64,000 bases of DNA from positions 224,001 through 288,000 of the forward strand of contig CAWIGG010000003.1 in assembly GCA_963835575.1 (NCBI GenBank), in the 5' to 3' direction. The translations under genes and the position numbers were made by a program. The notes under the pieces are model-generated. The model saw only the letters and a program-made list of their open reading frames with translations, was not told where the DNA came from and made no database searches. How positions within the stretch are numbered: position 1 is the first letter of the stretch; each line of letters starts with the position of its first letter. The stretch is from an uncultured Spirochaetota bacterium (lineage in GTDB: Bacteria > Spirochaetota > Brevinematia > Brevinematales > JAOACQ01). This document shows, in pieces, positions 8,930-53,221 of the stretch.

Positions 8930-8940
8930 GAAACCTCCTT

Positions 8941-9441: not shown

Positions 9442-9460
9442 AGGGCGGCTCCTTGGGTTA

Positions 9461-11797: not shown

Positions 11798-11815
11798 ATT
11801 TCCTCCCGCTCACTC

Positions 11816-12517: not shown

Positions 12518-12528
12518 AATCCGCCACC

Positions 12529-13515: not shown

Positions 13516-13516
13516 A

Positions 13517-13921
13517 TTAAGCCTCCTCTTTTTCTTTATTTTCTTTGTTCTTGAACTTCTGGTTCAGGTTCATTCCGAGAACGAAATAATAACTCAATTC
13601 ATTGTCGCTGATGGTCTTGAAGTCCGCATAGGTCAAGTATTCGCCTGCCAGTGCTTCCAGTTTCGAATAATAGTTCTTTTTGTATTCATTGAGCTTATTC
13701 TGCACTTCGACAAATACCCTCTTCAAAATCTTTTCATCGATTTTCATTCCGTTCAGCCTTGAATAAAAAGGTTTATTTACCCGCTGTTCTGGTAAATCCA
13801 ACAGGTTTTTTGTCAATATTCCCGTTAGAAAACCCGCTTTTTTAGTATCCGTATCAAAAACGTCCGGGTGTGATTCCAGAAACTCCATATAAATTTTGTT
13901 CTCTTCCGTCATTTCCGGCAT
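13517..13921 (-). CDS. cas11: Internally initiated Cas11 small subunit (134 aa, in frame with cas8b)
   Basis: AAAGGAGG-aaaaggcc-ATG inside cas8b at codon 456. Confidence 0.7.
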   Translation of the reverse strand: MPEMTEENKIYMEFLESHPDVFDTDTKKAGFLTGILTKNLLDLPEQRVNKPFYSRLNGMKIDEKILKRVFVEVQNKLNEYKKNYYSKLEALAGEYLTYADFKTISDNELSYYFVLGMNLNQKFKNKENKEKEEA

Positions 13922-15286: not shown

Positions 15287-15490
15287 AAAACCCTCCTTTC
15301 TCTACTGCCCCCCCGCCGTTTAAACGCCCGCCAGAATCCGCGTCAATCCGTCTCATCCGCCTGATCCGTTTCTCTTAGCGTCCCTTCGCGTGCCTTGGCG
15401 GATACCCCCGGGTAGCCTGGGGCAATTGCCCCTGGCTACCCATTATTTACTTCGCCGTCTCTATCATACCGAAGGAGCACGTGCTCCCGC

Positions 15491-15745
15491 CTATCCAACG
15501 CCGTCCCGTTTCTTAACACCGAAATGCTTTTGAAACAGTTCCTGCGCTTTCTTCCAGCCTTCTTCGGTAAACACAACCGACTTTGCCTTGCCGACGGGAT
15601 TTTCAATAAATCCCTTTTGATGCAGCCTGTCCAGCACGTCCCAATCAAAGCCCTTCCAGGCCCTGGTATTGAAGCCGTCCGAATGCGATGTCAGAACCAG
15701 GAGCGCAAGGCTTATTTCATCGGCTTTTTCTTTATTGTATTCCAT
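15491..15745 (-). CDS. DUF6429-like small winged-helix protein
   Basis: RAWKGFDWDVLDRLHQKGFI...KAKSVVFTEEG. Confidence 0.8.
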   Translation of the reverse strand: MEYNKEKADEISLALLVLTSHSDGFNTRAWKGFDWDVLDRLHQKGFIENPVGKAKSVVFTEEGWKKAQELFQKHFGVKKRDGVG

Positions 15746-15790
15746 TGTACTTCCTCCGCTTTAAAATACCCGGCATCCGGAACCGCCGGC

Positions 15791-16534
15791 TCAATCCATA
15801 TTCCCATCCAGCGCTTCCTCAAGCTTGCCGTAGAGGCAGTCCAGCTCCTTTTCCAGTTTTTTATCCTTCGCGTGATTGGCCTCAGCGGCGATAAATCCCA
15901 TCAGATCTTCCAGTTCATCCGGCGTATACAATGCCGCGATTTTTCCGTCATCCTCCTTCGCCGTTTTAAGCCGTTCCGTCAAATCATCATCCGCGAAGGT
16001 CTCATCCAGTATCAAATCCCTTTCTTTTATCTTAAGTTCAATGAGGATTGGTTCCTCCCCGTCTTCCTCCATTGAGGGATACTGTTCCGGTGATTCGCCG
16101 GATTTCTCAAGGATATAGGGGTACTTCTTGCCCGGTATGGGCTTGCGGAACTCGATCAATTCCACCGGGAAAAACCATTCGTCGCCGTAGTCGAAAAAGA
16201 AAAGAAGCCTTGCGCCGATGTCCGGGAACGCCGCCGGGATTTTCGTTCTTTTCACGCCCGGGTAATCGCTTTCCTCCCCGATATCAGCGAACAGTTCAAA
16301 ACCGGTTTTGGAATGATACGGGTCCTTGAAATTATCGTAAAACCCGAAGGGATGGTCGAAAAGAAAATCGAAGGCCTCGTTTATGGCCTCGGCCAGCCTG
16401 TAAAGCGCGGCGCTTTCCGGTACGGCGATAGTCCGCCAGGGCTTCGGGTTCAGATTGCCGAAGGCCGAGCATTTGTCGGCGGTGACTTTGAAAACAGAAA
16501 TTCTGTCACCATTTTTCACATTGAGTGTGCGCAT
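15791..16534 (-). CDS. Plasmid pRiA4b ORF-3-like / IS1096 passenger family protein with acidic C-terminal extension
   Basis: WRTIAVP...LAEAINEAFDF..DHPFGF...FFFDYGDEWFFPVEL...G.SPEQYP. Confidence 0.75.
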   Translation of the reverse strand: MRTLNVKNGDRISVFKVTADKCSAFGNLNPKPWRTIAVPESAALYRLAEAINEAFDFLFDHPFGFYDNFKDPYHSKTGFELFADIGEESDYPGVKRTKIPAAFPDIGARLLFFFDYGDEWFFPVELIEFRKPIPGKKYPYILEKSGESPEQYPSMEEDGEEPILIELKIKERDLILDETFADDDLTERLKTAKEDDGKIAALYTPDELEDLMGFIAAEANHAKDKKLEKELDCLYGKLEEALDGNMD

Positions 16535-16662
16535 GCGTTAATCTCCTTTATTATTAAAATTTCAGTTATACCAAATTTTTATTGTGTTCTCTGTGCCTCC
16601 GCGTGAACTTTCCCGCCGTACCTTCTTCGCGCCTCTTCGCGTGCCTTAGCGGATACTTCCAT

Positions 16663-17418
16663 TCACTCATTAATCTCCACCATACCGAATCCCTGCGAGT
16701 TCTTGCTGCCGAGGCAGGCGTCATAAGCGAAGTTCAGTATTTCCGGCTCGCCCGTCAGGGCATAATACCCCATCCAGCCTTTCACGAGGGTTTTATCCTC
16801 CCCGGTCCCGAAATAGAGGATTTTCTCGTTTTTGTTTCCCTGGAAAAGAGGCTTTATATTTATGGAATAGGGGCAGTCCTTCTGATAAAGCGACGTCCAT
16901 TTCTTCCGCAGGTTATTCGCCGTTAATTCCGTGAACTCGGCTTCAAACGGGCTGTAAAAATGCGTCTTTTTTTTGCCTTCGGGAGTGGTGAACGTGGTAT
17001 AATTGACGATTGGTGTAATGCATTTGATCCTGACGGCATTGGCCCGTATTTCTTTACGTTTCATGACCGCTATGGAAGAGACTGAGAGCATGTTTTCTCC
17101 CAGTTTCACCTTATCAGCTTGAATAAGGTTTTCCGCGAGCTGGGTAATTATCCAGTCGAGAGGGGAATTGATGATAAAGCCTATGGTTTGGGGAAAATAA
17201 AAGGCCTTTTCATTTTTTTCGAACCGTCCCCTTTCCAGTATGCCGGAAAAGGAAAATAATTTAAACGAACGCTTCTCGAAACGGTAGCCTTCGTTATGGA
17301 GCCATTCTCCGTCGTCCATTGCGAGGTGATTATAGATAAGCGCCTGGATATTGGCGTTGAAGCCTGTCCTTAAAAACACGTTTTTATTGACGGAGCACAG
17401 TTCGACTTTAATTCTCAT
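16663..17418 (-). CDS. cas6: Cas6 endoribonuclease
   Basis: C-terminal LGSKNSQGFG loop; FKLFSFS. Confidence 0.93.
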   Translation of the reverse strand: MRIKVELCSVNKNVFLRTGFNANIQALIYNHLAMDDGEWLHNEGYRFEKRSFKLFSFSGILERGRFEKNEKAFYFPQTIGFIINSPLDWIITQLAENLIQADKVKLGENMLSVSSIAVMKRKEIRANAVRIKCITPIVNYTTFTTPEGKKKTHFYSPFEAEFTELTANNLRKKWTSLYQKDCPYSINIKPLFQGNKNEKILYFGTGEDKTLVKGWMGYYALTGEPEILNFAYDACLGSKNSQGFGMVEINE

Positions 17419-30860: not shown

Positions 30861-30948
30861 AAATAATCATCAATTAAAAAATTATTTTAATAATTTAAAT
30901 TTACTTGCATTTTCCCATATAGGATATACTTCATCGAAATATTTTTCA

Positions 30949-32344
30949 GAGTTATAATAGAAAGTTGTGTATAGGAATAAATATTATAAAAAAGATGGCG
31001 TACCCTCTATAATTTATTTACGACAATAAACAAAAGGAGGAATACGCCATATGCCGAAGCACAACGAAGATTTTAAGCTCTTACAGGCTTTTAATCAAGA
31101 TGAAACAGTAGAATTTTTATGTCTTGAAGAATTGGCAAGGATCGGGGCCAGGGAAATAATCAAGAAGGCTCTGGAAGATGAAATTAATGGGTTTCTTCAG
31201 GAGAGAGAGCATTTAACTATCGAAGACGGGAGAAAGGCAATAGTAAGAAATGGGTATCATAAAGCCCGTCAGATTCTCATTGGTGGAGGGGCTATTGATG
31301 TATGTATTCCGAGAACAAGGAACCGACTCGGAGGCGACAATTTTCAAAGCCTAATAGTACCGCCGTATATGAGAAAAAGCCTGAGAATTGAGGAAGCCAT
31401 TCCATTGTTGTATCTCTATGGAGTCTCAGAGATGGATATGGAGAATGCCTTGAGAGGATTGCTTGGTGAAGAAGCGAAAGGATTATCAGCCTCAAGTATA
31501 AGCAGAATGAAACAAGGATGGGGTAAAGAATATGATGAGTGGCGGACATCCGATTTAAGCGATAAAAAGTATTGCTATATATGGGTTGACGGCATTTACT
31601 TCAATGTACAGGGCAGCGAAGACCGTTTATGCACTCTTGTAATGATCGGAGCCAATGAGAATGGTGAAAAGGAGATTATTCTTGTTGAAGAAGGTTACAG
31701 AGAGAATTCCGAGACTTGGTTAGGGATATTAAGAAACCTAAAAGAAAAAGGTTTGAAAGGTCCTATTCTTTTTATCGGAGACGGAAGCCTTGGATTCTGG
31801 AAAGCAGCCAAAGAAGTATATCCTGAATCCAGATGGCAGAGATGCTGGGTTCATAAGATAAAGAACATTCTAAACAAGCTGCCCAAAGTATTACAGTCAA
31901 AGGCAAAAGAGATGCTTCATGAGATATGCAATGCTCCTGATAAGGATAATGCTATCAAAGCTTTTGAATTATTCCAGGCGGTTTTTAATCCTAAATATCC
32001 AGCAGCTGTCGAATGTTTAGAAAAGGATTGGGAGCTTATGATCGAATTTTATAACTGTCCGGCGGAACATTGGGTACATATCCGTACGACAAACGTAATA
32101 GAATCTACCTTCTCTACAGTTCGATTAAGAACTAAAAAGATGAGAGGCTGCGGAACCAGGGAAACGATTCTAATAATGGTCTATAAATTACTGGATAAGG
32201 CATCCAGGCGATGGAGAAAATTAAGAGGTTATGAAAAGATTAGCCTTGTATTGGAAGGCGCTGTTTTTGAGAACGGAGAGCTTGTAAAAAAGGCAGCATA
32301 AAAAAATGAGAGGGTATGTCATACACAACATTTGACAAAAACTC
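30949..32344 (+). mobile_element. IS256-family element, copy 1 (transposase 31051-32301), no TSD
   Basis: WVDGIY, QRCWVHK, RTTNVIES; imperfect GAGTT...GTTGTGTA ends. Confidence 0.93.
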
Positions 32345-32929
32345 AATAAGATATCAAAGTCAAATAATAAAAACAATTCGCCACTAATCACAAAAATTAT
32401 AATTGGCTGTATTATAGGCACAATATTTGGTATTATATTAACTAATCTGCCTCAACAGCAAAATAAAGAACCTGATAAAAGGGCAATAAGAATTGAACAA
32501 TTAAAAAAGCTGAAATATGCAGCTAATAATCAATTTCAAAAATATACACCAGAACAATTGTTGCATATTATAAATAGAGATTATGTCCATTACAACTCAG
32601 AATCTTATTTACATGGAGACATGGGGTATTATCAAGATCCCTACGTCACCCTTATTACAAGAAAGGGTGATTGTAAAGCATATGCAATGTTATTTTTAAC
32701 CATAATGAGAGCTGTCTATGGAGTTTCACCTAAATTTGTGGTTATTCATATTGAAGGCGATGAATACCATGCTCTTGTAGAGTGGGAAGATACATTTTAT
32801 GACCTGACATGGAATGAGGTTTATCCTGAGTCCCAATTTGGAGTTATTCATCCATCATATTCTGTTGACCAGAAATACACATATGATGATGCAATTTCTA
32901 TGATAAATTTTCAGGAAGATGAACAATAA
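32345..32929 (+). pseudogene. 5'-truncated membrane-anchored transglutaminase-like cysteine proteinase
   Basis: Frame is open from the IS end; TM helix then KGDCKAYA...HALV...YD. Confidence 0.65.
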
Positions 32930-32937
32930 TAATTCAT

Positions 32938-35900
32938 TTAATCTTTAATTAATTCATTAAATATATCAGTAAAATACATAGTTATTGAATCATAATAGGC
33001 TTCAAATACTGTAATTAATGATGAATCTAAAGATTTCTTATTTTCTAAATTTAATACTTCAATGACAATATATCTACTCACTCTATAAATTGGGTCTTTA
33101 AAATTAGAATTTTCATAATATTTATTTACATCACCATCAAAGTATATTTTAATAATATCTTCTTTTCCTTCAATATAAAATAAGGTTTTAAGATTGTTAA
33201 TGTGCCTTAATAGATATTCTTCAAAACTTTTTTCTTTTTCAATAGCTTTATTGGAAAGGAGAGTATCTGTAATATTATTAGTAAAAAAAGAATATATATT
33301 AGCATATGAAATTGTATGAAGTGAGTTTTTGTCAAATGTTGTGTATGACATACCCTCTCATTTTTTTATGCTGCCTTTTTTACAAGCTCTCCGTTCTCAA
33401 AAACAGCGCCTTCCAATACAAGGCTAATCTTTTCATAACCTCTTAATTTTCTCCATCGCCTGGATGCCTTATCCAGTAATTTATAGACCATTATTAGAAT
33501 CGTTTCCCTGGTTCCGCAGCCTCTCATCTTTTTAGTTCTTAATCGAACTGTAGAGAAGGTAGATTCTATTACGTTTGTCGTACGGATATGTACCCAATGT
33601 TCCGCCGGACAGTTATAAAATTCGATCATAAGCTCCCAATCCTTTTCTAAACATTCGACAGCTGCTGGATATTTAGGATTAAAAACCGCCTGGAATAATT
33701 CAAAAGCTTTGATAGCATTATCCTTATCAGGAGCATTGCATATCTCATGAAGCATCTCTTTTGCCTTTGACTGTAATACTTTGGGCAGCTTGTTTAGAAT
33801 GTTCTTTATCTTATGAACCCAGCATCTCTGCCATCTGGATTCAGGATATACTTCTTTGGCTGCTTTCCAGAATCCAAGGCTTCCGTCTCCGATAAAAAGA
33901 ATAGGACCTTTCAAACCTTTTTCTTTTAGGTTTCTTAATATCCCTAACCAAGTCTCGGAATTCTCTCTGTAACCTTCTTCAACAAGAATAATCTCCTTTT
34001 CACCATTCTCATTGGCTCCGATCATTACAAGAGTGCATAAACGCTCTTCGCTGCCCTGTACATTGAAGTAAATGCCGTCAACCCATATATAGCAATACTT
34101 TTTATCGCTTAAATCGGATGTCCGCCACTCATCATATTCTTTACCCCATCCTTGTTTCATTCTGCTTATACTTGAGGCTGATAATCCTTTCGCTTCTTCA
34201 CCAAGCAATCCTCTCAAGGCATTCTCCATATCCATCTCTGAGACTCCATAGAGATACAACAATGGAATGGCTTCCTCAATTCTCAGGCTTTTTCTCATAT
34301 ACGGCGGTACTATTAGGCTTTGAAAATTGTCGCCTCCGAGTCGGTTCCTTGTTCTCGGAATACATACATCAATAGCCCCTCCACCAATGAGAATCTGACG
34401 GGCTTTATGATACCCATTTCTTACTATTGCCTTTCTCCCGTCTTCGATAGTTAAATGCTCTCTCTCCTGAAGAAACCCATTAATTTCATCTTCCAGAGCC
34501 TTCTTGATTATTTCCCTGGCCCCGATCCTTGCCAATTCTTCAAGACATAAAAATTCTACTGTTTCATCTTGATTAAAAGCCTGTAAGAGCTTAAAATCTT
34601 CGTTGTGCTTCGGCATATGGCGTATTCCTCCTTTTGTTTATTGTCGTAAATAAATTATAGAGGGTACGCCATCTTTTTTATAATATTTATTCCTATACAC
34701 AACTTTCTATTATAACTCTATGAAGTTCACGAATGTTGTTATCCCAGGCACTAAAATTATTTAAAGCAAAATCTATGTAGTTAAACATAAATAATATCAC
34801 AAATGCAAAAATAATTCGCCCTTCAATTTCATCATTGTATTTGCAATATTCTGAGACTGCTGTTTTGATAATGGGCAAGTTGTTAATGATTTTATCTTCT
34901 ATATATGAATTATAAACAGTTTTGGAAAACAGTTCAGTAAATTCTTCATTATCTTGAGAAATGTTTTCTCTTTTAAAATATATGGATGAGGTTTTGAGCT
35001 CAACTTTTGGATTTTCTTCATTTGAATTCTTTAAATCTTTATATTTTTGTTTATTATTTGTATCATTTCCAGCACCAGCTTTTATCAAGGTTTGTATAAC
35101 TTCGGATTGCCCTTCTTTGTTAGCTATCATGAGAACAGTCTTACCATGAATATCTGTTGCATTTATATTTGCTCCATAATCAATCAGTGCTTTAACGGAA
35201 TTATAATCACAATTTTGAATTGCGATCATCAAAGCTGTCATACCTTCATTATCACTAATATTGACATCAGCACCAGCCTCAATCAAAGTTTTAACAACAG
35301 TAAGTTCTCTGTTATAAATAGCATCCATTAAAGGTGTCCATCCAACTTTATCTTTAGCATTTACATCTGCTCCAGCTTTGATTAATAATTCAACAACATC
35401 ATTTTTACCTACTGAAGCGGCAGAAAATAAAGCAGTTTCCCCACTCTCCCCTGTCATATTTATATTAGTCCCAGCTTCGATTAATATTTTTACAGAATCT
35501 AATTGCCCTTTTGAGGCTGCAAAAGACAAAGCAGTAGAACCTTCTAATGTCTTATTAACATCGGCACCCGCTTCAATCAATACTCTAACCGCATCTACTT
35601 GCCCACTATTTGCTGCATGTATTAAAGCTGTCCAACCATGTTTATTCTGATCGTTTACATCAGCCCCTGCCTCAATCAATAATTTAATTGCATCAGCTTT
35701 TCCACATTCGGCTGCTTTGATTAATGCCGTTTCGTTGAAGTCATCTTTCGCATTAATATTAGCTCCAGCCTCAATCAATGCTTTAATTACATCCGTTTTT
35801 CCTTCGCTAGCAGCCCACATTAAAGCTGTTGAATTTGTATTCTCAGTTGAATTAACATTAGCCCCCGCTTTAATTAATGTATTAACTGCTTCTGTCAGTC

Positions 35901-36117
35901 CATTGTTGGATGAGAATAATAAAGCCGAATTACCATATTTATCTTTTACATTAACATTGGCTCCTTTTTTGATTAATTCTATGACAGCTTCAGGTTTCTT
36001 ATTGTAGGCCGCATAAATTAGTGGTGTCCAGCCATCTTCATTTATAGAATTAATATTACCTCTATAATTCTTGATAAATTCAATATCACCATTTTGAATT
36101 GCTTTAAATATGTCCAC
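32938..36117 (-). pseudogene. Large ankyrin-repeat protein with C-terminal domain, split by IS256 copy 2
   Basis: About 10 ankyrin repeats; removing the IS and TSD TATGAAGT restores NNIRELHTISYANIY. Confidence 0.85.
33323..34718 (-). mobile_element. IS256-family element, copy 2 (transposase 33366-34616)
   Basis: One amino acid different from copy 1; 8-bp TSD TATGAAGT. Confidence 0.95.
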
Positions 36118-38133: not shown

Positions 38134-38336
38134 GGGGTTACCTTGGAATTCGGAAAAAATAGTACGCTAACGAAATATAAATCTATCCATCTTATTATAT
38201 AATAAGAACTTAAAAATATCATCAATTTCAGATGATAACCCAAATCTTATGATTTTATCGGATTCAGTAACTCTTTACCCGGTAATGATATTATAATTCT
38301 TAACGTACAAAAATATCCAAATTCCAAGGTAACCCC
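38134..38336. mobile_element. 203-bp Tn3-type MITE, copy A
   Basis: 38-bp IRs GGGGTTACCTTGGAATT...TACG(C/T)TAA(C/G). Confidence 0.85.
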
Positions 38337-38888
38337 ATGTACAGCGCCGTGATCCGGCTCATGGGTTTCTGCGGTCTCCGGGCCTCTGAAGTTATCGGAC
38401 ATGAAAAACGTGAGGGGGGCGGCCTCCGGATCCGGGACATTGATCTTACTTCCGGAGAAATTATAATCAGGGACGCGAAGGACACCAGGGCGAAAGAAAA
38501 ACGGCAGAAGAAGAACAAAACAGGGCGGGTAGTCTTCGCCCAAGGGGAAACCCTCGAGGCTATGCGGTCCTGGTGGACGAAAACAAGATCCTTCCTACCC
38601 GGCCAGGATCCGGAAGATTATTTTTTCTGTAACCGGTTCGGGGGAAAAATTAACAACAGCCAGCTGAGGAGAGCATTTCGTATATACGGTGCCAAGGCCG
38701 GGATCCCGCAAGAAAAGCGTCATCCCCATGCATTACGACATTCAGCCGGTACGCGGTTTTATAAGGTTACAAAAGACCTGCTTATAACTCAAAAAATACT
38801 CGGCCATGCAAACGCCCATGAAACCGTCCGTTATGCCCATGTATCCGGCGCTGACATCGAGGAAACGATGAAAAGGGTATTGGGGTAA
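38337..38888 (+). CDS. Tyrosine recombinase copy 1 (N-terminally shortened, in frame)
   Basis: GLRASE, HALRH, LGH, RY catalytic set. Confidence 0.85.
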   Translation: MYSAVIRLMGFCGLRASEVIGHEKREGGGLRIRDIDLTSGEIIIRDAKDTRAKEKRQKKNKTGRVVFAQGETLEAMRSWWTKTRSFLPGQDPEDYFFCNRFGGKINNSQLRRAFRIYGAKAGIPQEKRHPHALRHSAGTRFYKVTKDLLITQKILGHANAHETVRYAHVSGADIEETMKRVLG

Positions 38889-42182: not shown

Positions 42183-42220
42183 GGGGTCGGCTCACGAAAC
42201 GGAAATTTAACCACGTTAAG
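42183..42220 (+). mobile_element. Tn3-family 38-bp terminal repeat
   Basis: GGGGTCGGCTCACGAAACGGAAATTTAACCACGTTAAG. Confidence 0.8.
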
Positions 42221-42297: not shown

Positions 42298-42374
42298 GTA
42301 CCGAAAATAACTTTACAATTCCGAAAGTCCCGGATATACTAAATTGAGTACCGAAAATACATTATTTTCGGTAC
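42298..42374. promoter_or_regulatory. Putative recombinase binding/crossover site
   Basis: GTACCGAAAATA direct repeat plus inverted pair GTACCGAAAA-TACATTA-TTTTCGGTAC. Confidence 0.6.
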
Positions 42375-43021: not shown

Positions 43022-43062
43022 TTTAAAGGCTCTGGATAAGCCGTTAAGGGGGGGGGGAGAAA

Positions 43063-43524
43063 ATGGATATTTTTGAAGCGGCTCGCAATGGCAATGTTGC
43101 GTTTATTAAGAGTTATAAAGGTGATATCAACGCGGTGAATAAAGATAGCTGGACGGCTTTGATGTGTGCAGTCTACCAGGGCAATCTGGACGCTGTCAAA
43201 GCATTGATCGAGGCTAAGGCTAATGTCAGCGCTGTGGATATAAACGGCAGGACGGCTTTGCATGAGGCGGCTCTGTGGAGGTTCGCTGATGCGGTTAAGG
43301 TATTGATTGAGGCAAAAGCCGATGTCAACGCTGTGGATAAATGGGGCTGGACACCTTTGTTTGAGGCAGCTCGCATTGGTCAAACAGACACGGTTAAAGT
43401 ATTGATCGAGGCAAAAGCCAATGTTAACGCGAAAGATACAAACGGTAAGACGGCTTTGATGCTCGCGACTGTATGTGAGCGCATGGACGTGGTTACAGAA
43501 TTAAAAAAAGCTGGCGCGGAATAG
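43063..43524 (+). CDS. Small ankyrin-repeat protein (ank1)
   Basis: 33-aa TAL/TPL repeats. Confidence 0.9.
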   Translation: MDIFEAARNGNVAFIKSYKGDINAVNKDSWTALMCAVYQGNLDAVKALIEAKANVSAVDINGRTALHEAALWRFADAVKVLIEAKADVNAVDKWGWTPLFEAARIGQTDTVKVLIEAKANVNAKDTNGKTALMLATVCERMDVVTELKKAGAE

Positions 43525-43610
43525 ACGGTTTCTGGACCAGAGTGACGGACTCAAAACGTGAATCCTACGTAATTCTAACAAGGGATTCCTTTTAAATAAC
43601 ACTTTGACGA

Positions 43611-43640
43611 TTGACATTTACATCTCAAAACAGGTAAGAT
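43611..43640 (+). promoter_or_regulatory. Sigma70-like promoter for ank2
   Basis: TTGACA-18 nt-TAAGAT. Confidence 0.5.
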
Positions 43641-43673
43641 TATTGAGTCTTTGAAATTGAAGAAGGTTAGGGA

Positions 43674-44135
43674 ATGGGTATTTTTGAAGCGGCTCGCAAT
43701 GGCGATGTTGCTTTTATTAAGAGTTATAAAGGAGATATCAACATCGTGGATAATGTCGGTATGACGGCTTTGATGTGGGCGACTAACTATGGCCACACGG
43801 ACGCGATTAAAGCATTGATCAAGGCCAAGGCTAATTTAAACGCGACGGCTAAAGACGGCTCGACGGCTTTAATGATAGCGGCCTCCTATAGGCATACGGA
43901 TGCGGTTAAAGTTCTGATCAAGGCCGGGGCCAATTTAAACGCAGCAGATGAAAGGGGTTTGACGGCTTTGATGGATGCGGTCCTTGAGGGAACAACGGAC
44001 TCTGTTGAAGTATTGATCGCAGCTAAGGCCGATGTCAACATGGCGGATATTTACAGCAATACGGCTTTGCTAATTGCAAAAGCAAATAAATATAAAGATA
44101 TAATCAAGCTCTTGAAAGAAGCAGAGGCAAAATAA
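43674..44135 (+). CDS. Small ankyrin-repeat protein (ank2)
   Basis: Same N-cap, ankyrin repeats. Confidence 0.9.
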   Translation: MGIFEAARNGDVAFIKSYKGDINIVDNVGMTALMWATNYGHTDAIKALIKAKANLNATAKDGSTALMIAASYRHTDAVKVLIKAGANLNAADERGLTALMDAVLEGTTDSVEVLIAAKADVNMADIYSNTALLIAKANKYKDIIKLLKEAEAK

Positions 44136-44182
44136 ACGATATGTTAAACGGTAAAGTCTCTTACCGGGTAGAAGGTTAGAAA

Positions 44183-44446
44183 ATGGACATTTATGAAGCG
44201 GCTCGCAATGGCGATGTTGCGTTTATTAAGAGTTATAAAGGCGATGTCAACGTCGTGGATAAATGGGGCTGGACGGCTTTGTTTGAGGCGGCTTGCAATG
44301 GTCACACGGCCGCGGTTAAAGTATTGATAGAGGCAAAGGCCAATGTCAACGTGGAGGATACAAACGGTAAGACGGCTTTGATGCTTGCGACCAGATGTGG
44401 GTACATGGATGTGGTTACAGAATTAAAAAAGGCTGGCGCTAAATAG
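44183..44446 (+). CDS. Minimal ankyrin-repeat protein (ank3)
   Basis: N-cap, one internal repeat, C-cap. Confidence 0.85.
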   Translation: MDIYEAARNGDVAFIKSYKGDVNVVDKWGWTALFEAACNGHTAAVKVLIEAKANVNVEDTNGKTALMLATRCGYMDVVTELKKAGAK

Positions 44447-44616
44447 ACAGATCCTGGGGAAGAGCCGGGATTCTGGCTGTGGACTGTTAAAAAAACCCTA
44501 CCCGTGAAATCTTGGCAATTCTAACAGGGTATTGCGTGAAAAAGCCATTAAAAGTTGCAAAATTTTGATGGGAGAATATAATTACCCGCAAAATTGAAAG
44601 TGTGGGAGGTTAGAAT

Positions 44617-45411
44617 ATGGGTGATCTTAATTCAGTGGACAAAAATAATAAAATGGTTAAAATTCCAGGTGGTACTTTCCAGATGTATTCCCAAAAGGTA
44701 ACAGTCTCATCATTTTCTATTTCAAAATTTGATATCAAGCAGGGCGAATGGGTAGAGATTATGGGAGATAATCCATCACATTTTAATGATAATCTTAATA
44801 ATCCCGTTGAAAATGTTTCATGGTATGATGCGGTTGTTTATTGCAATAAAAGGAGCATAAAAGAGGGCCTGACCCCGGTGTACTCAATCAGTGGAAGTAC
44901 CGATCCTTCCTCCTGGGGAGCAGTGCCGACTTCAATAAATTCCATCTGGAATACTGTTACCGCTGACTGGTTTACCAACGGATACCGGTTGCCTACAGAA
45001 ATGGAATGGATGTGGGCGGCCATGGGGGCCGATACGGCGAATCCGGGGCAGGTTAATCTCACCGGCTACAATAAAGTCTTTGCGGGGAGCACAGGGGCTA
45101 ATGGTATTAATGACTATGCCTGGACCAACGGCAATAGCGGAGGAACCACGCATCCGGTAGGTACTAAATTGACGAACGAGCTTGGCCTGTATAACATGAG
45201 CGGGAATGTGTGGCAGTGGTGCTGGGACTGGTATAGGAATTATCCGATGGATTCGCAAACGGATTACCGTGGAACGGCTTCGGGCACGCGCCGCGTCTTA
45301 CACGGCGGCAGTTGGTACGACGGATCGTCGTACGCTACGGTTGCCTATCGCGCCGACCGCAACCCGTTTAACCAGCTCAACAATATCGGGTTCCGTGTTG
45401 TGCGCCCCTGA
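44617..45411 (+). CDS. FGE-sulfatase/C-type-lectin-fold protein, probable DGR target
   Basis: PVENVSWYDA, RLPTEMEW, GLYNMSGNVWQW, GGSW...NIGFRVVRP. Confidence 0.88.
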   Translation: MGDLNSVDKNNKMVKIPGGTFQMYSQKVTVSSFSISKFDIKQGEWVEIMGDNPSHFNDNLNNPVENVSWYDAVVYCNKRSIKEGLTPVYSISGSTDPSSWGAVPTSINSIWNTVTADWFTNGYRLPTEMEWMWAAMGADTANPGQVNLTGYNKVFAGSTGANGINDYAWTNGNSGGTTHPVGTKLTNELGLYNMSGNVWQWCWDWYRNYPMDSQTDYRGTASGTRRVLHGGSWYDGSSYATVAYRADRNPFNQLNNIGFRVVRP

Positions 45412-45626
45412 GTTCTGCAGAAATCGAGTCCCTTTAGCCGCGTAGGCGTCAAGCCTGAGCGGGTTAAGGGACTCGTAAGCGAAATACACGTCGCGTTTGC
45501 GCGGCGTCGCCTTATATTGTATTGGATATAGATTTGCCATTGTTAACGCAATTTGTATCGTTTCCTTGTGGGCTAACTGGGAACACCGGAAGGTGCTTTT
45601 TTAAGCATCATACCGTAAAAATACCC

Positions 45627-46177
45627 ATGTACAACGCCGTGATCCGGCTCATGGGTTTCTGCGGCCTCCGGGCTTCCGAAGTCATCGGACATGAAAAACG
45701 AGAGGGCGGAGGACTCCGGATCCGGGATATAAACCTTACTTCCGGAGAAATTACGATCCGGGACGCAAAGGACACCAGGGTGAAAGAAAAACGGCAGAAG
45801 AAGAATAAAACAGGCCGGGTAGTTTTCGCTCAGGGAGAAACCCTCGAGGCCATGCGGACCTGGTGGATAAAAATAAGGTCCTCTCTCTCCGGCCAGGCTC
45901 CGGAAGATTATTTTTTCTGCAACCGGTTCGGGGGAAAATAAACAACAGCCAGTTGCGGAGGGCTTTTCGTATATACGGGAACAAGGCCGGGATCCCGCAA
46001 GAAAAGCGGCATCCCCATGCATTACGTCATTCGGCCGGCACGAGGTTTAATAAGGTTACAAAAGACCTGCTTATAACACAAAAAATTCTCGGACATGCTA
46101 ACGCCCATGAAACCGTTCGTTATGCCCATGTGTCCGGCGCCGATATCGAGGAAACGATGAAAAGGGTATTGGGGTAA
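45627..46177 (+). pseudogene. Tyrosine recombinase copy 3 (-1 frameshift near 45935)
   Basis: Near-identical to copies 1 and 2, split over two frames. Confidence 0.85.
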
Positions 46178-46211
46178 TTTGAAATCCCGGATAAGCCGTT
46201 AAGGGGGGGGG

Positions 46212-46265
46212 ATGGGTATTTTTGAAGCGGCTCGCAATGGCGATGTTGCGTTTATTCAGAGTTAT
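46212..46265 (+). pseudogene. Ankyrin N-cap fragment
   Basis: ATGGGTATTTTTGAAGCGGCTCGCAATGGCGATGTTGCGTTTATT then unrelated DNA. Confidence 0.75.
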
Positions 46266-46369
46266 TGGTTATAATCCTATAGGTACTGACAAAAAATTGA
46301 AGCAGAAAGGCCAAGATAGAATTATTTGTCGGAAAGTTAACGGATTCAGGTATTTATTAGGGGGTATTT

Positions 46370-46708
46370 ATGATTTACACAGAAAAAGAAGTTCAGGATA
46401 TTCTAAAAAATTATTTTGGTAATAGAATTAATGAAATCTTTAAAACCGATGGTTTTAGTTTATTTTTAAAGGAGTATTACAGCAATGGAATCGGAAATAA
46501 TCCTCTAATTCTTTTTTTAAATAAAAATTATATGGAGCTTGGAATTCAAGAATATTCTTTTGCTCCCCCCAAATACACTAATTTAAATGACATAGATTTG
46601 TCTAAATGGGAATTTCCCAGAATTCATCCTATAGAAAACTGGATGTATATGAAGGAAAGTAAGATAACTAAAATAATTGGTGATCATGAAGTCATTAGGA
46701 CAAAATAA
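46370..46708 (+). CDS. Hypothetical protein
   Basis: 112-aa ORF with AGGGGG upstream. Confidence 0.55.
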   Translation: MIYTEKEVQDILKNYFGNRINEIFKTDGFSLFLKEYYSNGIGNNPLILFLNKNYMELGIQEYSFAPPKYTNLNDIDLSKWEFPRIHPIENWMYMKESKITKIIGDHEVIRTK

Positions 46709-46801
46709 AGACCGGGAAAATCACCTGGTCAAAGCTAATTGTCATATCAAACAGCGAGGTAATTTATGTCTATTTTCCAGGAAAGAAGTTGATTTAACGG
46801 T

Positions 46802-47200
46802 ATGATTGATTTAAAAAAGGCGGTTCTGTTTTCAAGTGGTGATTCTAATATTTCTTTTTTAGCAAAATGTTTGGCAGATGAGGTGAGAGCTGATTTAGTG
46901 CCTTTTATTAAAATAAATAACTGTGATTTTAATAAATATAATTTAATATTCATTGGTTTAAAAATTGAGGAAGGGAAATTAGATCCATATTATAAGAGAA
47001 TTAAATTTAAGAATAAAGATGTTCAAATATTTTATTTTTACCCGTCTGATACAAACGCATCATTTGATGCACTCGAAAAAAAACTTGTTAATAATATGAT
47101 TAAAGGTGATAAGAACTTTTATACTCCTGATTTTGATAGAAAGAAATTATGTGATAATATTCAAACTTGGGGTACTTTAGTAAGTCAATACACAGTTTAA
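46802..47200 (+). CDS. Degenerate flavodoxin-like protein
   Basis: AVLFSSGDSNISFLAKCLA...YNLIFIG pattern. Confidence 0.45.
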   Translation: MIDLKKAVLFSSGDSNISFLAKCLADEVRADLVPFIKINNCDFNKYNLIFIGLKIEEGKLDPYYKRIKFKNKDVQIFYFYPSDTNASFDALEKKLVNNMIKGDKNFYTPDFDRKKLCDNIQTWGTLVSQYTV

Positions 47201-47219
47201 AAATAAATGGGGTTAGAAA

Positions 47220-47603
47220 ATGGACGTTTTTGAAGCGGCTCGCAATGGCAAAGTTGCTTTTATTAAGAGTTATAAAGGCGATGTCAACGCCGTGACTAAA
47301 GACGGCTGGACGGCTTTGATGGAAGCGGCAGGGGAAGGGCGCATGAACATTGTCAAAGCATTGATCGCGGCGAAGGCCGACGTCAACGCGGCGGCTAAAG
47401 ACGGCTGGGCGGCTTTAATGTATGCGGCTTCAGAAGGGCAAACGAGTACAGTTAAAGCATTGATCGAGGCAGGGGCCAATATCAACGCAGCGAATAATAA
47501 AGGCGAGACGGCTTTATCGCTTGCTATTGATAATAAGCATACAGGAATTGCCAAGCTCTTGAAAGAGGGGGCAACGCAGAATTCGGAGAAAATTGTACTC
47601 TAA
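47220..47603 (+). CDS. Small ankyrin-repeat protein (ank4)
   Basis: Same N-cap, two internal repeats. Confidence 0.9.
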   Translation: MDVFEAARNGKVAFIKSYKGDVNAVTKDGWTALMEAAGEGRMNIVKALIAAKADVNAAAKDGWAALMYAASEGQTSTVKALIEAGANINAANNKGETALSLAIDNKHTGIAKLLKEGATQNSEKIVL

Positions 47604-47640
47604 GCCGTAGCCGATACCCCGGCCCATTGTTTGTCGGATT

Positions 47641-47870
47641 CTAATTTTTCTTCCCATTAACGGTATCTTTCATAGCTCTTCCTGGCTTGAAACATGCAGA
47701 TTTTCTGGCCGGGACTTTTACTTCTTCTCCAGTTTTAGGGTTTCTTGCAACCCTGGCTTTCCTTTGCTTTATGCCGAAAGTTCCGAATCCACGAATCTCG
47801 ATACGATTTCCAGCACCCGTATTCTCAATGGAATCCTTCAATTTATCAATGAATTTAGTGAACGAATAAG
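47641..47870 (-). pseudogene. HU/IHF-family gene lacking its N-terminal helices
   Basis: IEIRGFGTF...ARNPKTGEEVKVP...FKPG. Confidence 0.75.
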
Positions 47871-48046
47871 GGATGCGCTGTCAAGGACGGTCAATGTGAG
47901 GCCTTCAAAGGACACAACAGGCCCCCCCTTGACAGGACTTATTTAAAGCCCCTACAAAGGGTATATTTCAGGCCTATGATTGAAAATAACAACGCCATAA
48001 CAACGAGGTTCTAACCCTCACTATGTACAAAGTTACCTAAGGGCCA

Positions 48047-48337
48047 TTATAAAACAACAGCGATAATGTCGTCGCCGGAAAGGATAAGGTAATCCGCTTC
48101 TTCAATCTTGATCTGTGTTCCGGCGTACTTATCATAAATTACTTCATCCCCTACTTTCACTTCGACAGGAATAAGTTCTCCCTTGTCGTTCTTCTTTCCA
48201 GGGCCTATAGCCTCAATAACTCCGCGCTGCGTTTTTTCTTCCTGCGCGGTTTGAGGGATATAAATACCGCCTTTAGTTTTTTCTTCAGTCTTATTTACTT
48301 TGATTAAAACCCTGTTACTCAATGGTTTGACCTTCAT
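48047..48337 (-). CDS. groES: Co-chaperonin GroES
   Basis: KPLSNRV...TKGGIYIP...KYAGT. Confidence 0.95.
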   Translation of the reverse strand: MKVKPLSNRVLIKVNKTEEKTKGGIYIPQTAQEEKTQRGVIEAIGPGKKNDKGELIPVEVKVGDEVIYDKYAGTQIKIEEADYLILSGDDIIAVVL

Positions 48338-48378
48338 ATATCGCCTCCAATATAATTATTATTTTAATAAAAATAAGC

Positions 48379-50013
48379 TTAATACATATCACCCATTCCG
48401 CCGCCGCCTCCCGGAAGCATCATCGGGGCTTTTCCATTTTCAGGCTTATCGGTGATCAGCACTTCGGCTATCAAAAGCAGGCCTGCGATGGAGGCTGCGT
48501 TTTGAAGGGCGATCCTTCCGACTTTGGCAGGATCTATGATACCCGCTTTAACCATATCAACCCATTCGCCTGTTAAAGCATTATAACCGATCCCTTCTTT
48601 TGATTCCTTGGCTTTATAAACGACAACAGATCCGTCGATTCCGGCGTTGTCGGCTATCAGGCGCATAGGCGATTCGAGAGACTGGTAAATAATGTTTATT
48701 CCGACTTTCTCATCCGGGTTATCAGCTTCAATTTTAGCAACGGCTTTCTGCGCCTTGAGCATCGCAAGTCCTCCACCGGGAATGATGCCTTCTTCTATCG
48801 CGGCCCTGGTGGCGGAAAGTGCGTCTTCAACGCGAGCTTTCTTTTCTTTTAATTCAACTTCGGTAGCGGCACCAACTTTAATAATGGCAACGCCTCCGGA
48901 AAGTTTTGCGAGCCTTTCCTGGAGTTTTTCCTTGTCGTAATCTGAAGTGGTATCTTCTATCTGTTTTTTAATCTGCTTGATTCTTGCCTGTATGTCTTCT
49001 TTTTTACCGGCCCCGTCGATGATGACTGTGTTTTCTTTATCGATTTTGACTCTCCTGGCCTTTCCGAGATCGTCCAGGGTTGTGTTCTCAAGCTTCATGC
49101 CTTTTTCTTCTGAAATTACGTTGGCTTTTGTAAGAACAGCTATATCTTCAAGCATGGCTTTCCTTCTGTCTCCGAATGCGGGAGCTTTCACAGCCACGCT
49201 GTTTAATGTCCCTCTCAGCTTGTTGACAATTAAAGTGGCCAGAGCTTCTCCTTCGATATCTTCAGCGATAATAAGAAGTGTTTTACCGCTCTGGGCGATT
49301 TTCTCAAGAAGCGGGACAATCTCTTTCAGAGATGATATCTTCTTGTCATAAACCAGAATGAAAGGCTCTTCAAGTTCCGCTATCATGCTTTCAGCGTTTG
49401 TAACCATGTAAGCTGACAGATAACCTCTGTCGAACTGCATGCCTTCTACAACATCCACTAAAGTGTCCATGACCTTGGATTCTTCTACAGTTATAACCCC
49501 GTCTTTGCCTACCTTGTCCATGGCATCTGCGATATATTCGCCGATTGTCTGGTCATTATTAGCTGAAATTGACGCCACGTTGCGGATCTCTTCCCTGCCT
49601 TCAACCTTTTTTGACATCTTTTTGATCTCTTCTACAACGACTGCCACGGCTTTATCAATGCCTTTCTTGATAAGTGTGGGATTGCTGCCAGCTGTAACAT
49701 TCTTAAACCCTTCCTTAATAATTGCATGAGCGAAAACAGTGGCTGTAGTAGTGCCGTCACCAGCTATATCATTTGTTTTTGTCGCAACTTCCTTAACAAG
49801 CTGCGCTCCCATGTTCTCAAAGCGATCATCAAGTTCGATTTCCTTGGCTACGGTAACGCCGTCTTTAGTTATAGTCGGAGCACCGAATTTCTTGTCAATA
49901 ACTACATTACGACCTCTCGGGCCGAGCGTTGCACCAACCGCTTTTGAAAGTTTTTCAACACCGATTAGTAATTTTTGATGTGCTTCACTTGAAAACATCA
50001 AATCTTTTGCCAT
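48379..50013 (-). CDS. groEL: Chaperonin GroEL
   Basis: [17 protein letters not shown] tail; AGGAG before MAKD. Confidence 0.97.
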
Positions 50014-50967: not shown

Positions 50968-51381
50968 ATGCCGATAGGCAATACTTTAGAAAAAAGGATA
51001 CAATACAGGATTAAAAGGAATAAAGCTTCTGTGTTTTTGCTTTCGGATTTTGCTGATTTATCAGATAAAGATCAGATTATGCGCGCATTAAAAAAGCTAA
51101 TAAACAAAAAGCTTGTTGTCAAAGTAGGGCAAGGTCTTTATACCCGAGCAAGAATATCAACAATAACGAATAATCCTATTCCTGAAAAGGATATTATATC
51201 TGTTGCCAAAGAAGCTTTAAAAAAACTTAATGTAAAAGTTGTACCATCTAATTACGATATAATGTACGAAACAGGGAAATCAACCCAGGTTCCAACTGGA
51301 AGGGTTATAACTGTTAAAAGTCGAGTGTCAAGAAAAATTGGGTTTAATGGAAACTTTATAAAATATGCCAAAGCAAATTGA
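50968..51381 (+). CDS. AbiEi/DUF6088-like antitoxin
   Basis: wHTH with KVGQGLY, STQVP; overlaps the toxin gene. Confidence 0.8.
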   Translation: MPIGNTLEKRIQYRIKRNKASVFLLSDFADLSDKDQIMRALKKLINKKLVVKVGQGLYTRARISTITNNPIPEKDIISVAKEALKKLNVKVVPSNYDIMYETGKSTQVPTGRVITVKSRVSRKIGFNGNFIKYAKAN

Positions 51382-52339
51382 AAAAATTGTTTATGAAGAT
51401 ATTGCCGCTGAACTTGGCGTTAAGCCTTCTTTTATTGAAAAAGATTATTACGCCGTACATATACTAAATGAATTATCAAAGATAGAATATGAAAACGCAA
51501 AGTTAATATTTTCAGGCGGAACTTGCTTATCAAAGGGATACAAGCTTATAAAAAGATTTTCTGAAGACCTTGATTTTAGAATAGATACAACTGTGCCTTT
51601 TACAAGGCCGCAAAGAAGAGAGTTTAGAGAATTTATAATATCAAAAATTAAAGACCTTCCAGACTTAGAGTATTTAGAAGAATCTTTAGACATAAAAAAC
51701 AATAGTGAATTATTCGGGTTTAATGTTAAATATCCGAAATTGTTTACTTTTAGTGGTGGATTAAGAAACGATTTAAAATTGGAATTTACTTTTAAAAACT
51801 TGCAACTCCCCACTAATACATGTCCAATTGAAACCTTTGTATCAAAATATACTGGTAAAACTGAAATAACAAAGATGAATTGTATTTCCCCTGTTGAAAT
51901 CGGAGCAGACAAATTAAGTGCTTTGATGTGGCGGGTTGATATAAAAAACAGAACAAAGCCACAAGGTCATGTCGCAAATGATGCAACCATCATAAGACAT
52001 TTACACGATTTATCTGCTTTAGAAAAGCTTCTATTAAACGATGTTTTTATAAAGTGTGCTGAGAAGTCTTTTGAAACCGATAAAGGTCGTAGTGGTTCTA
52101 ATGATCACATTATTTTAGCTGAATATGCAAAAAGGACTTTAGATAAGTTAAAAACAGATAGTATTTATGCCAAAGAGTACAAGGAATTTGTTGATGCTTT
52201 GTCTTATTCCAAAGAATCTGAGACGATTGATTTTAAAAGGGCTTTATCATCTTTTGAGAGAATTGTTGATTTTATCAAAATGGATATTAATAAAAATCAT
52301 GCAATTAAAAAAGACAATAGCCGTGGGATGGGAATGTAA
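51365..52339 (+). CDS. AbiEii-family nucleotidyltransferase toxin (type IV TA)
   Basis: IEKDY, FSGGTCLSK, RFSEDLDF, RHLHD. Confidence 0.88.
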   Translation: MPKQIEKIVYEDIAAELGVKPSFIEKDYYAVHILNELSKIEYENAKLIFSGGTCLSKGYKLIKRFSEDLDFRIDTTVPFTRPQRREFREFIISKIKDLPDLEYLEESLDIKNNSELFGFNVKYPKLFTFSGGLRNDLKLEFTFKNLQLPTNTCPIETFVSKYTGKTEITKMNCISPVEIGADKLSALMWRVDIKNRTKPQGHVANDATIIRHLHDLSALEKLLLNDVFIKCAEKSFETDKGRSGSNDHIILAEYAKRTLDKLKTDSIYAKEYKEFVDALSYSKESETIDFKRALSSFERIVDFIKMDINKNHAIKKDNSRGMGM

Positions 52340-52462: not shown

Positions 52463-52665
52463 GGGGTTACCTTGGAATTCGGAAAAAATAGTACGCTAAC
52501 GAAATATAAACCTATCCATCTTATTATATAATAAGAACTTAAAAATATCATCAATTTCAGATGATAACCCAAATCTTATGATTTTATCGGATTCAGTAAC
52601 TCTTTACCCGGTAATGATATTATAATTCTTAACGTACAAAAATATCCAAATTCCAAGGTAACCCC
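52463..52665. mobile_element. 203-bp Tn3-type MITE, copy B
   Basis: Nearly identical to 38134-38336. Confidence 0.85.
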
Positions 52666-53221
52666 ATGTACAGCGCCGTGATCCGGCTCATGGGTTTCTG
52701 CGGCCTCCGGGCTTCCGAAGTCATCGGACATGAAAAACGTGAGGGGGGCGGCCTCCGGATCCGGGACATTGATCTTACTTCCGGAGAAATTATAATCAGG
52801 GACGCAAAGGACACCAGGGTGAAAGAAAAACGGCAGAAGAAGAATAAAACAGGCCGGGTAGTTTTCGCTCAGGGAGAAACCCTCGAGGCCATGCGGATCT
52901 GGTGGACAAAAATAAGGTCCTCTCTCTCCGGCCAGGCTCCGGAAGATTATTTTTTTCTGCAACCGGTTTGGGGGAAAAATTAACAACAGCCAGCTGAGGA
53001 GAGCATTTCGTATATACGGTGCCAAGGCCGGGATCCCGCAAGAAAAGCGTCATCCCCATGTATTACGTCATTCGGCCGGCACGAGGTTTTATAAAGTTAC
53101 AAAAGACCTGCTTATAACTCAAAAAATACTCGGCCATGCGAACGCCCATGAAACCGTTCGTTATGCCCATGTCTCCGGCGCTGACATCGAGGAAACGATG
53201 AAAAAGGTATTGAGGAACTAA
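52666..53221 (+). pseudogene. Tyrosine recombinase copy 4 (+1 T frameshift near 52950)
   Basis: T7 in place of T6; HVLRH variant. Confidence 0.85.

What the first reader, a model, noticed from the sequence alone, without database searches (positions are those of the whole stretch)
43063..47603. Natural DARPin-like ankyrin library with constant caps and 1-3 interchangeable repeats
Seen: ank1-4 share a near-invariant roughly 60-nt start (M[D/G][I/V][F/Y]EAARNGxVAFIKSYKGD), carry 3, 3, 1 and 2 internal repeats, and use two C-cap types. The framework (TAL..A...G..D.VK.LIEAKA.VN) is conserved while hairpin and first-helix positions vary strongly (MCAVYQ, HEAALW, FEAARI, MWATNY, MIAASY, FEAACN). 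ank3 looks like ank1 minus two repeats (shared GTGGATAAATGGGGCTGGAC and C-cap DNA). Known: these are the positions randomised in designed ankyrin binders. Inference: diversifying selection and repeat shuffling of small binders with no signal peptide. The gene at 36117 is a distant long member.
Basis: partly seen in the sequence, partly recalled or inferred. Interest (0 to 1): 0.75.

Follow-up and report, generated by a model that had tools for sequence, protein, structure and literature searches.

The report
Fast-evolving natural DARPin-like ankyrin cluster
Four small ankyrin-repeat genes with near-identical starts and different repeat numbers sit as cargo in a transposon-derived island; their predicted binding surface has likely been under diversifying selection, making them probable defence-type binders, but no dedicated shuffling machine was found.

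Summary
The four genes are real: 3, 3, 1 and 2 internal repeats, 5' caps 88-92% identical, and a predicted fold matching DARPins (TM 0.94). The variable-position pattern is generic (rho 0.92 with 258 other repeats of the family), and the cap is a family-wide protein motif, not a conserved DNA site. Two signals go beyond that. Caps are younger than bodies (synonymous differences 0.10 vs 0.29). A site model finds positive selection at repeat positions 13, 14 and 16 (LRT 17.7; 0 of 10 control sets significant), although it weakens to p=0.02 if that segment has older ancestry. One recombinase copy is a clear mosaic of two others, so ordinary gene conversion is sufficient to explain the module swapping. 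Verdict: a small, likely adaptively diverging set of cytoplasmic binders, not a demonstrated library system. Targets are unknown; immunity or decoy function is the most likely role.

The parts
42183..42220 (+). Tn3-type 38-bp inverted repeat (left end of the unit)
   Evidence: score 37.6; shuffled-contig maximum 11.5; Tn3 transposase elsewhere in the genome
42389..43021 (+). Intact catalytic-domain-only tyrosine recombinase (int2); ORF also open from TTG at 42344
   Evidence: PF00589; homologs start at this ATG
43063..43524 (+). ank1: N-cap, 3 internal repeats, C-cap
   Evidence: AlphaFold2 pLDDT 98.2; TM 0.94 to a DARPin
43674..44135 (+). ank2: N-cap, 3 repeats, C-cap; its stop codon lies inside the rpoZ fragment
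44132..44174 (+). 43-nt fragment of an rpoZ gene, 42/43 identical to G001's rpoZ
44183..44446 (+). ank3: N-cap, 1 repeat, C-cap
44555..44582 (+). Sigma-70-like promoter match; similar sequence precedes ankyrin genes in G002 and G004
   Evidence: consensus match only
44617..45411 (+). FGE-sulfatase-domain gene, 90.6% identical to the gene directly behind rpoZ in G001
45626..46177 (+). int3: 5'-truncated, frameshifted recombinase copy with the same 3' flank as int2
46212..46265 (+). Fifth N-cap copy (stub); stop after 20 codons
46370..46708 (+). AT-rich (27% GC) ORF of unknown family
   Evidence: no Pfam, NCBIfam or Atlas hit; weak PADLOC hit E 3e-4
46802..47200 (+). AT-rich (26% GC) ORF, weakly flavodoxin-like
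   Evidence: E 0.002-0.004, below cut-off
47220..47603 (+). ank4: N-cap, 2 repeats, C-cap whose end is read from an inverted repeat
47567..47604 (+). Tn3-type inverted repeat overlapping the 3' end of ank4
   Evidence: score 47.7
34693..36117 (-). Long distant ankyrin gene (474 aa) with the same cap type
38134..38888 (+). 203-nt miniature element with Tn3-type ends, plus truncated recombinase copy int1
52463..53215 (+). Second copy of the 203-nt element (202/203 identical), plus int4, a mosaic of int1 and int3

Best explanation
These are four small, signal-peptide-free ankyrin paralogs carried in a Tn3-type mobile island, whose caps and repeats were likely exchanged by ordinary homologous recombination and whose predicted binding face likely diverged under positive selection, so that each would bind a different protein, most plausibly an incoming toxin or phage protein. 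Shown: the gene anatomy, the mobile setting, the family-wide origin of the cap, mosaicism of a neighbouring recombinase copy, and lower synonymous divergence in caps than in bodies. Inferred: positive selection (probable, about 0.6), the recombination route, and any defence role (about 0.35; no target or assay). Predicted only: the DARPin-like fold.
For: Site model M1a vs M2a on the 9 window repeats: LRT 39.3 (single-base changes) and 17.7 (multi-base changes allowed), sites 13, 14, 16, with 10 and 5 weaker. It holds without ank3 (16.2) or ank1 (8.8), and 0 of 10 control repeat sets were significant. At the a-priori DARPin positions omega is 2.19 (p 0.016) against 0.18-1.27 in 13 converged controls under the same model; core omega is 0.27. 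Between ank1 and ank3, 6 of the 12 changed residues fall at positions 13-16. Synonymous differences in caps are 11/114 against 43/147 in bodies, while caps at gene starts in other genomes show 0.36-0.51 against 0.45. int4 alternates between int1-like and int3-like blocks: 56 sites in 11 runs, 0 of 20000 shuffles as clumped. One 98%-identical contig has hairpin INGK where ank1 repeat 3 has KWGW. Setting: 10 Tn3-type ends and 4 recombinase copies between 38134 and 61579 (11 profile hits in the window in all). Near-identical recombinases carry HEPN-like and TIR-like neighbours in L035. Ankyrins are listed as immunity proteins in polyimmunity loci (PMC3482391, passages).
Against: Framework omega is also the highest in the window set (0.51 vs 0.06-0.32), and the variable-to-framework ratio (4.3) lies inside the control range (2.1-5.3). 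The a-priori test is not significant under F3x4 with multi-base changes (p 0.14; p 0.11), and under the simplest model 2 of 6 controls also exceeded 1. Giving positions 9-17 their own depth drops the signal to p 0.02 on sites chosen after the fact, and 4 of 16 neutral simulations with a deeper segment passed the 5% threshold (maximum 13.8). Only 1 of the 7 amino-acid differences listed for the related strain is at a DARPin position. The cap-vs-body contrast is p 0.01 for one trio but 0.07-0.14 on shorter alignments. No tract signal among repeats. No toxin, phage target or expression evidence.
Confidence: 0.5

Rival explanations
1. Ordinary paralog drift. The genes are relaxed cargo in a decaying island; ankyrin surface positions always vary, and gene conversion of caps and framework lowers synonymous divergence enough to mimic selection.
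For: Column conservation matches 258 family repeats (rho 0.92). High framework omega and an unremarkable ratio. Simulated false positives. Strain differences mostly off the binding face. Debris all around: a stub, 3 broken recombinases, ank4 cut by an inverted repeat.
Against: All 4 ORFs are intact with core omega 0.27. 0 of 16 deeper-segment simulations reached the observed 17.7. Silent differences inside positions 9-17 (0.53) barely exceed those at 18-33 (0.46).
Confidence: 0.3
2. A recombinase-driven cassette system, like an integron, shufflon or rAID array: int2 would recombine at a site in or just before the constant cap, joining caps to different bodies and capturing genes.
For: An intact recombinase directly precedes a co-directional array, and the recombinase-plus-cap junction is duplicated. 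The stub breaks inside the cap. ank3 with its spacer stands between two pieces that are adjacent in G001. A GTTAG motif precedes ank2, ank3, ank4 and FGE. rAID arrays have this overall layout (10.1101/471110, passages).
Against: The cap is not conserved at silent sites across 34 other caps (0.51-0.53). No attC-like hairpin in the 3 spacers folded (z 0.48, -0.84, -1.41). No integron integrase over cut-off in the genome. None of the 4 other loci holding this recombinase or a piece of it (L028, L035, L036, L037) has an ankyrin array. The GTTAG motif also precedes lone ankyrin genes in G004 and G006, which fits a ribosome-binding context. All caps face the same way, unlike a shufflon.
Confidence: 0.1
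3. Housekeeping adaptors: cytoplasmic offshoots of the lineage's large secreted ankyrin family that bind the cell's own proteins and diverged by subfunctionalisation, without any conflict.
For: 18-44 matches per genome in the 4 congeners. 24 of 28 capped relatives have a hydrophobic leader. Lone cytoplasmic members sit among housekeeping genes, as in G006 L196.
Against: No ortholog above about 56% over the full length in 30 relatives. The mobile setting and the selection signal are not expected for conserved adaptors.
Confidence: 0.1

Closest known systems
DARPins (designed ankyrin repeat proteins)
   Same: N-cap, 33-residue repeats and C-cap; the ank1 model superposes at TM 0.94, rmsd 1.0; variable positions include 13 and 14.
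   Different: Natural and only four genes; framework not fixed (repeats 59-85% identical); the strongest sites include 16 and 10, which DARPin libraries keep fixed; caps vary; no target known.
Imm-ank ankyrin immunity proteins and polyimmunity loci (PMC3482391, passages)
   Same: Ankyrin-only proteins clustered without a toxin gene alongside.
   Different: No cognate toxin and no other recognised immunity family found in the cluster; neutralisation untested.
rAID-1 arrays of Bacteroidales (10.1101/471110; PMC12247911; passages)
   Same: Tyrosine recombinase at the 5' end followed by co-directional small genes; interface positive selection is reported for rAID immunity genes.
   Different: The recombinase is a 210-aa catalytic-only type found in 2 of 401 genomes of the phylum sample; the ank genes are 45-49% GC, above the 41% rAID criterion; no repeated intergenic motif shown.
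Non-autonomous Tn3-family elements with tyrosine resolvases (recalled class)
   Same: 38-bp ends of Tn3 type; a Tn3 transposase beside a short tyrosine recombinase elsewhere in the genome.
   Different: No matched 5-bp target duplication in 18 end pairs tested; element limits unresolved.

Membership tests
Ankyrin repeat proteins | Pfam ankyrin match over the curated cut-off | tested here: met
   4 of 4 genes
Ankyrin repeat proteins | Helix-turn-helix solenoid with terminal caps | tested here: met
   prediction only, ank1 only:
DARPin-type library | Variation concentrated at positions 2, 3, 5, 13, 14, 33 | tested here: inconclusive
   identity 0.21 there vs 0.62 elsewhere, but the family shows the same pattern (0.12 vs 0.53) and positions 10 and 16 vary as much
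DARPin-type library | Fixed, interchangeable framework and constant caps | tested here: not met
   N-caps 88-92% identical, but repeats 59-85% and C-caps 50-88%
DARPin-type library | Members bind different targets | not testable with these tools
   no candidate target
rAID-1 | 5' tyrosine recombinase with 2 or more co-directional downstream genes | tested here: met
rAID-1 | Downstream genes at 41% GC or lower | tested here: not met
   ank1-4 and FGE 45-49%; only 2 of 7 downstream genes qualify
rAID-1 | Recombinase over 44% identical to the B. fragilis rAID recombinase | not tested
   that protein was not fetched; the 13 homologs carried no such label
rAID-1 / Imm-ank | Neutralises a toxin | not testable with these tools
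   needs an assay
Integron | IntI-family integrase | tested here: not met
   0 of 37 TIGR02249 matches over cut-off; int2 scores 30 of 265 bits
Integron | attC hairpins between genes | tested here: not met
   3 spacers folded, none better than shuffles
Diversity-generating retroelement | Template repeat differing only at adenines | tested here: not met
   no close extra copy of the ank or FGE 3' regions in the genome; ank1/ank3 differences are not adenine-specific
Tn3-family element | 38-bp ends plus a Tn3 transposase available | tested here: met
   the end consensus is recalled, and the profile was built from 7 window copies
Tn3-family element | 5-bp target duplication around a defined element | tested here: not met
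   0 of 18 end pairs

The most novel reading that the evidence does not exclude
A natural DARPin library in a free-living spirochaete relative: the adjacent tyrosine recombinase uses the constant cap as its crossover site to swap ankyrin bodies and capture DNA, generating an adaptive repertoire of intracellular binders against toxins or phages.
Probability: 0.1. Interest if true: 0.8.

Novelty: new variant of a known kind. Interest (0 to 1): 0.42.

Why it matters
If the selection signal holds, this is a natural case of minimal one-to-three-repeat capped ankyrin binders diversifying in a bacterium with no sign of a eukaryotic host. It points to an unknown conflict and offers a natural cap and scaffold to compare with engineered DARPins. 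It also shows that the 'DARPin pattern' alone is not evidence of a library. Searches for a prior description found none: ankyrin + Brevinematales, 0 papers; ankyrin + orphan immunity + tyrosine recombinase, 0; ankyrin + positive selection + gene conversion + repeat number, 2, both on eukaryotic NLRs by their listing; one search listed 8, none on this by title. Most subscription journals are not in that library.

Tried and rejected
An exact 18-nt cap pattern in genome contigs gave 70 scattered single hits in unrelated taxa, treated as chance and not used. Protein searches found no close relative: ank3 only itself among 2 candidates, ank2 two hits at 37-45%. The viral scan gave 3 loci at 37-41%, generic ankyrins, not followed. 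The Atlas gave generic ankyrin clusters for ank3 and nothing for the 46370 ORF. No RNA holder was listed; this says nothing about expression. The two DNA runs are contigs of one study at depth 2-6; they cover ank1's 3' part to ank2 and not ank3, the stub or ank4, and show no cap-to-cap joint. Random family trios as a control for cap-vs-body rate were saturated and uninformative; three start-of-gene relatives were used instead. One of 14 control sets failed to converge and was dropped; one set had too few repeats, and two fitted at parameter extremes. A palindromic recombination site in the cap was rejected: no silent-site conservation in the family and no fold. DGR and integron readings were rejected. 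No tRNA in the window. Four look-ups of earlier findings returned nothing. No complex prediction was run, because there is no candidate partner. No supplements were read.
Full report
Observation. Cut in DARPin register they give an N-cap of 25 residues, 3, 3, 1 and 2 internal repeats, and a C-cap. N-caps are 88-92% identical in DNA, repeats 59-85%, C-caps 50-88%. An AlphaFold2 model of ank1 from a 10-sequence alignment has pLDDT 98.2 and superposes on DARPin crystal structures at TM 0.94. DARPin libraries randomise positions 2, 3, 5, 13, 14 and 33 (PMC8248824, passages).

The genome is likely a Brevinematales spirochaete: the closest recombinase homolog (96%) is labelled so by its source. An intact 210-aa tyrosine recombinase ends 41 nt before ank1. 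Three more copies, 92-93% identical, lie at 38337, 45626 and 52666, all cut at the same base, two of them frameshifted. The third is followed by the same flank as the intact one and by a fifth cap that stops after 20 codons. A profile built from 7 window copies of a 38-bp repeat of Tn3 type (consensus recalled) found 24 sites in the genome, 11 of them in the window, and none in a shuffled 1.07-Mb contig. One overlaps the end of ank4. The genome has one Tn3 transposase, next to another short tyrosine recombinase. The 43 nt after ank2 are a piece of rpoZ, 42/43 identical to G001's gene. In G001 that gene lies directly before an FGE gene 90.6% identical to the window's, with no ankyrin genes, while G000's own rpoZ is elsewhere at 78%. 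So the cluster is a patchwork built on a segment likely acquired from a congener, with ank3 and a promoter-like spacer set between the two pieces (inference). The recombinase was found in 2 of 401 genomes of the phylum sample. Its 4 other loci carry other cargo.

Is the pattern special? Mostly not. 30 of 31 genomes searched match ank1, with 18-44 matches in each of the 4 congeners. In the regions fetched, 61 ankyrin ORFs were found, and 34 further caps of this type (31 in relatives, 3 in G000). 24 of 28 capped relatives have a hydrophobic leader; 0 of 4 window genes do. Across the family the cap is conserved in protein but not at silent sites (0.51-0.53 differing), so it is a structural cap and not an old DNA site. 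Column conservation in the 9 window repeats tracks that of 258 other ungapped repeats from 69 ORFs (Spearman 0.92).

Module exchange. Within the window, silent differences are 11 of 114 in caps and 43 of 147 in the next 52 codons. Comparisons with three start-of-gene relatives give 0.36-0.51 in caps and 0.45 in bodies. A codon model gives bodies 3.6 times the cap's synonymous depth (p 0.01), or about 2.5 times on shorter alignments (p 0.07-0.14); control trios give 0.9-1.9. The window repeats do not form a clade in a tree of all 267, though support is low for 99-nt sequences. The fourth recombinase copy is a block mosaic of the first and third (56 informative sites, 11 runs, 0 of 20000 shuffles), so conversion between repeats happens in this island regardless of ankyrins. 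Contigs of two peat-metagenome runs match ank1's 3' part, the spacer and ank2 at about 98%. One of them, at depth 3.1, reads INGK at repeat positions 2-5 where ank1 has KWGW (loose end). Three of 11 listed differences fall in ank2's cap, two matching a paralog's allele, and none in the 149-nt spacer. Against this, identical tracts among the 9 repeats are no longer than in column shuffles.

Selection. With the six DARPin positions fixed beforehand, omega was 1.6-4.3 depending on the model, with p from below 0.0001 to 0.14. Under F61 with multi-base changes it was 2.19 (p 0.016), against 0.18-1.27 in 13 of 14 control sets that converged. Under the simplest model 2 of 6 controls also exceeded 1. 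The site model without prior positions gave LRT 39.3 and 17.7, picking 13, 14 and 16, with 10 and 5 weaker. It survived dropping ank1 or ank3, and 0 of 10 control sets were significant. The main caveat is that converted framework and older variable segments can mimic selection. Neutral simulations gave at most 1.6 in 8 runs without a depth difference, and up to 13.8 in 16 runs with a 2.5- or 4-fold deeper segment; 4 of those 16 passed the 5% threshold and none reached 17.7. Letting the segment take its own depth left p 0.02 on sites chosen after the fact. Framework omega is also high (0.51), and only 1 of 7 strain amino-acid differences is at a DARPin position. I put positive selection at about 0.6. 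These models are my own scripts, run on 9 sequences of 33 codons.

How it likely works. Shown: anatomy, setting, family origin, local conversion. Inferred: a cytoplasmic member of the lineage's ankyrin family was copied within a mobile island; recombination in the near-identical caps and frameworks changed repeat number and joined one cap type to older bodies; selection changed the end of helix 1. Function is the weakest step. Ankyrins are known immunity proteins in polyimmunity loci (PMC3482391, passages), recombinase-headed immunity arrays exist (10.1101/471110, passages), and their interfaces are reported under positive selection (PMC12247911, passages). That makes toxin or phage binding the best guess, at about 0.35, with no direct evidence. 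The cluster fails the tested membership features of rAID (GC), integron and DGR. PMC8683736 and PMC8229355 were read as passages for DARPin design.

Verdict. New variant of a known kind; interest 0.42.

Noticed in passing
window 47641-50010: A second groEL (86% to the C2 copy), a second groES (79%) and an HU/IHF-like fragment lie between Tn3-type ends; possibly captured chaperonin cargo.
   Followed up: partly
window 38336, 45626, 52665: Three recombinase copies are cut at the same base; two abut the 203-nt element, but the third has a different upstream sequence. Unexplained.
   Followed up: partly
window 43573-43670 and 44519-44616: Both spacers hold TTCTAAC about 90-100 nt before a complementary GTTAG motif at the next start. 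It resembles an integron core, but no hairpin folds.
   Followed up: partly
window 45425-45520: Strong double hairpin after the FGE gene (z -6.5), with no other copy found in the genome.
   Followed up: partly
window 42298-42372: Repeated GTACCGAAAATA motif with a palindrome before the recombinase, with similar motifs in L035 and L028; likely its own binding or resolution site.
   Followed up: partly
window 7919-17418: cas-like gene cluster (Cas1-, Cas4-, Cas3-, Cas5-, Cas7-, Cas8- and Cas6-like by eye from the translations); labels recalled, not tested.
   Followed up: no
window 30948-34719: Two near-identical mutator-family transposases in inverted orientation (1398-nt arms, 100%) enclose 976 nt with two small ORFs.
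   Followed up: no
window 50968-52339: DUF6088 plus AbiEii nucleotidyltransferase pair between Tn3-type ends.
   Followed up: no
G000:C3:297557-300840 and L031:7797-10794: A different tyrosine recombinase, ankyrin gene(s), a GGDEF/EAL-like gene and a Tn3-type end occur together in both G000 and G004: a second mobile ankyrin unit.
   Followed up: partly
L126, L146, L148: Long secreted relatives contain the N-cap again internally, as if capped modules were fused in tandem.
   Followed up: no
L132 (G002:C2:1093700-1098600): Three tandem capped ankyrin genes with a shared C-terminal domain; here cap (0.92) and first repeat (0.86) diverge together.
   Followed up: partly
window 44550-44576 and 43051-43083: In both runs a contig joins the ank3 spacer promoter to a different ankyrin start, so this promoter also heads other ankyrin genes.
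   Followed up: partly
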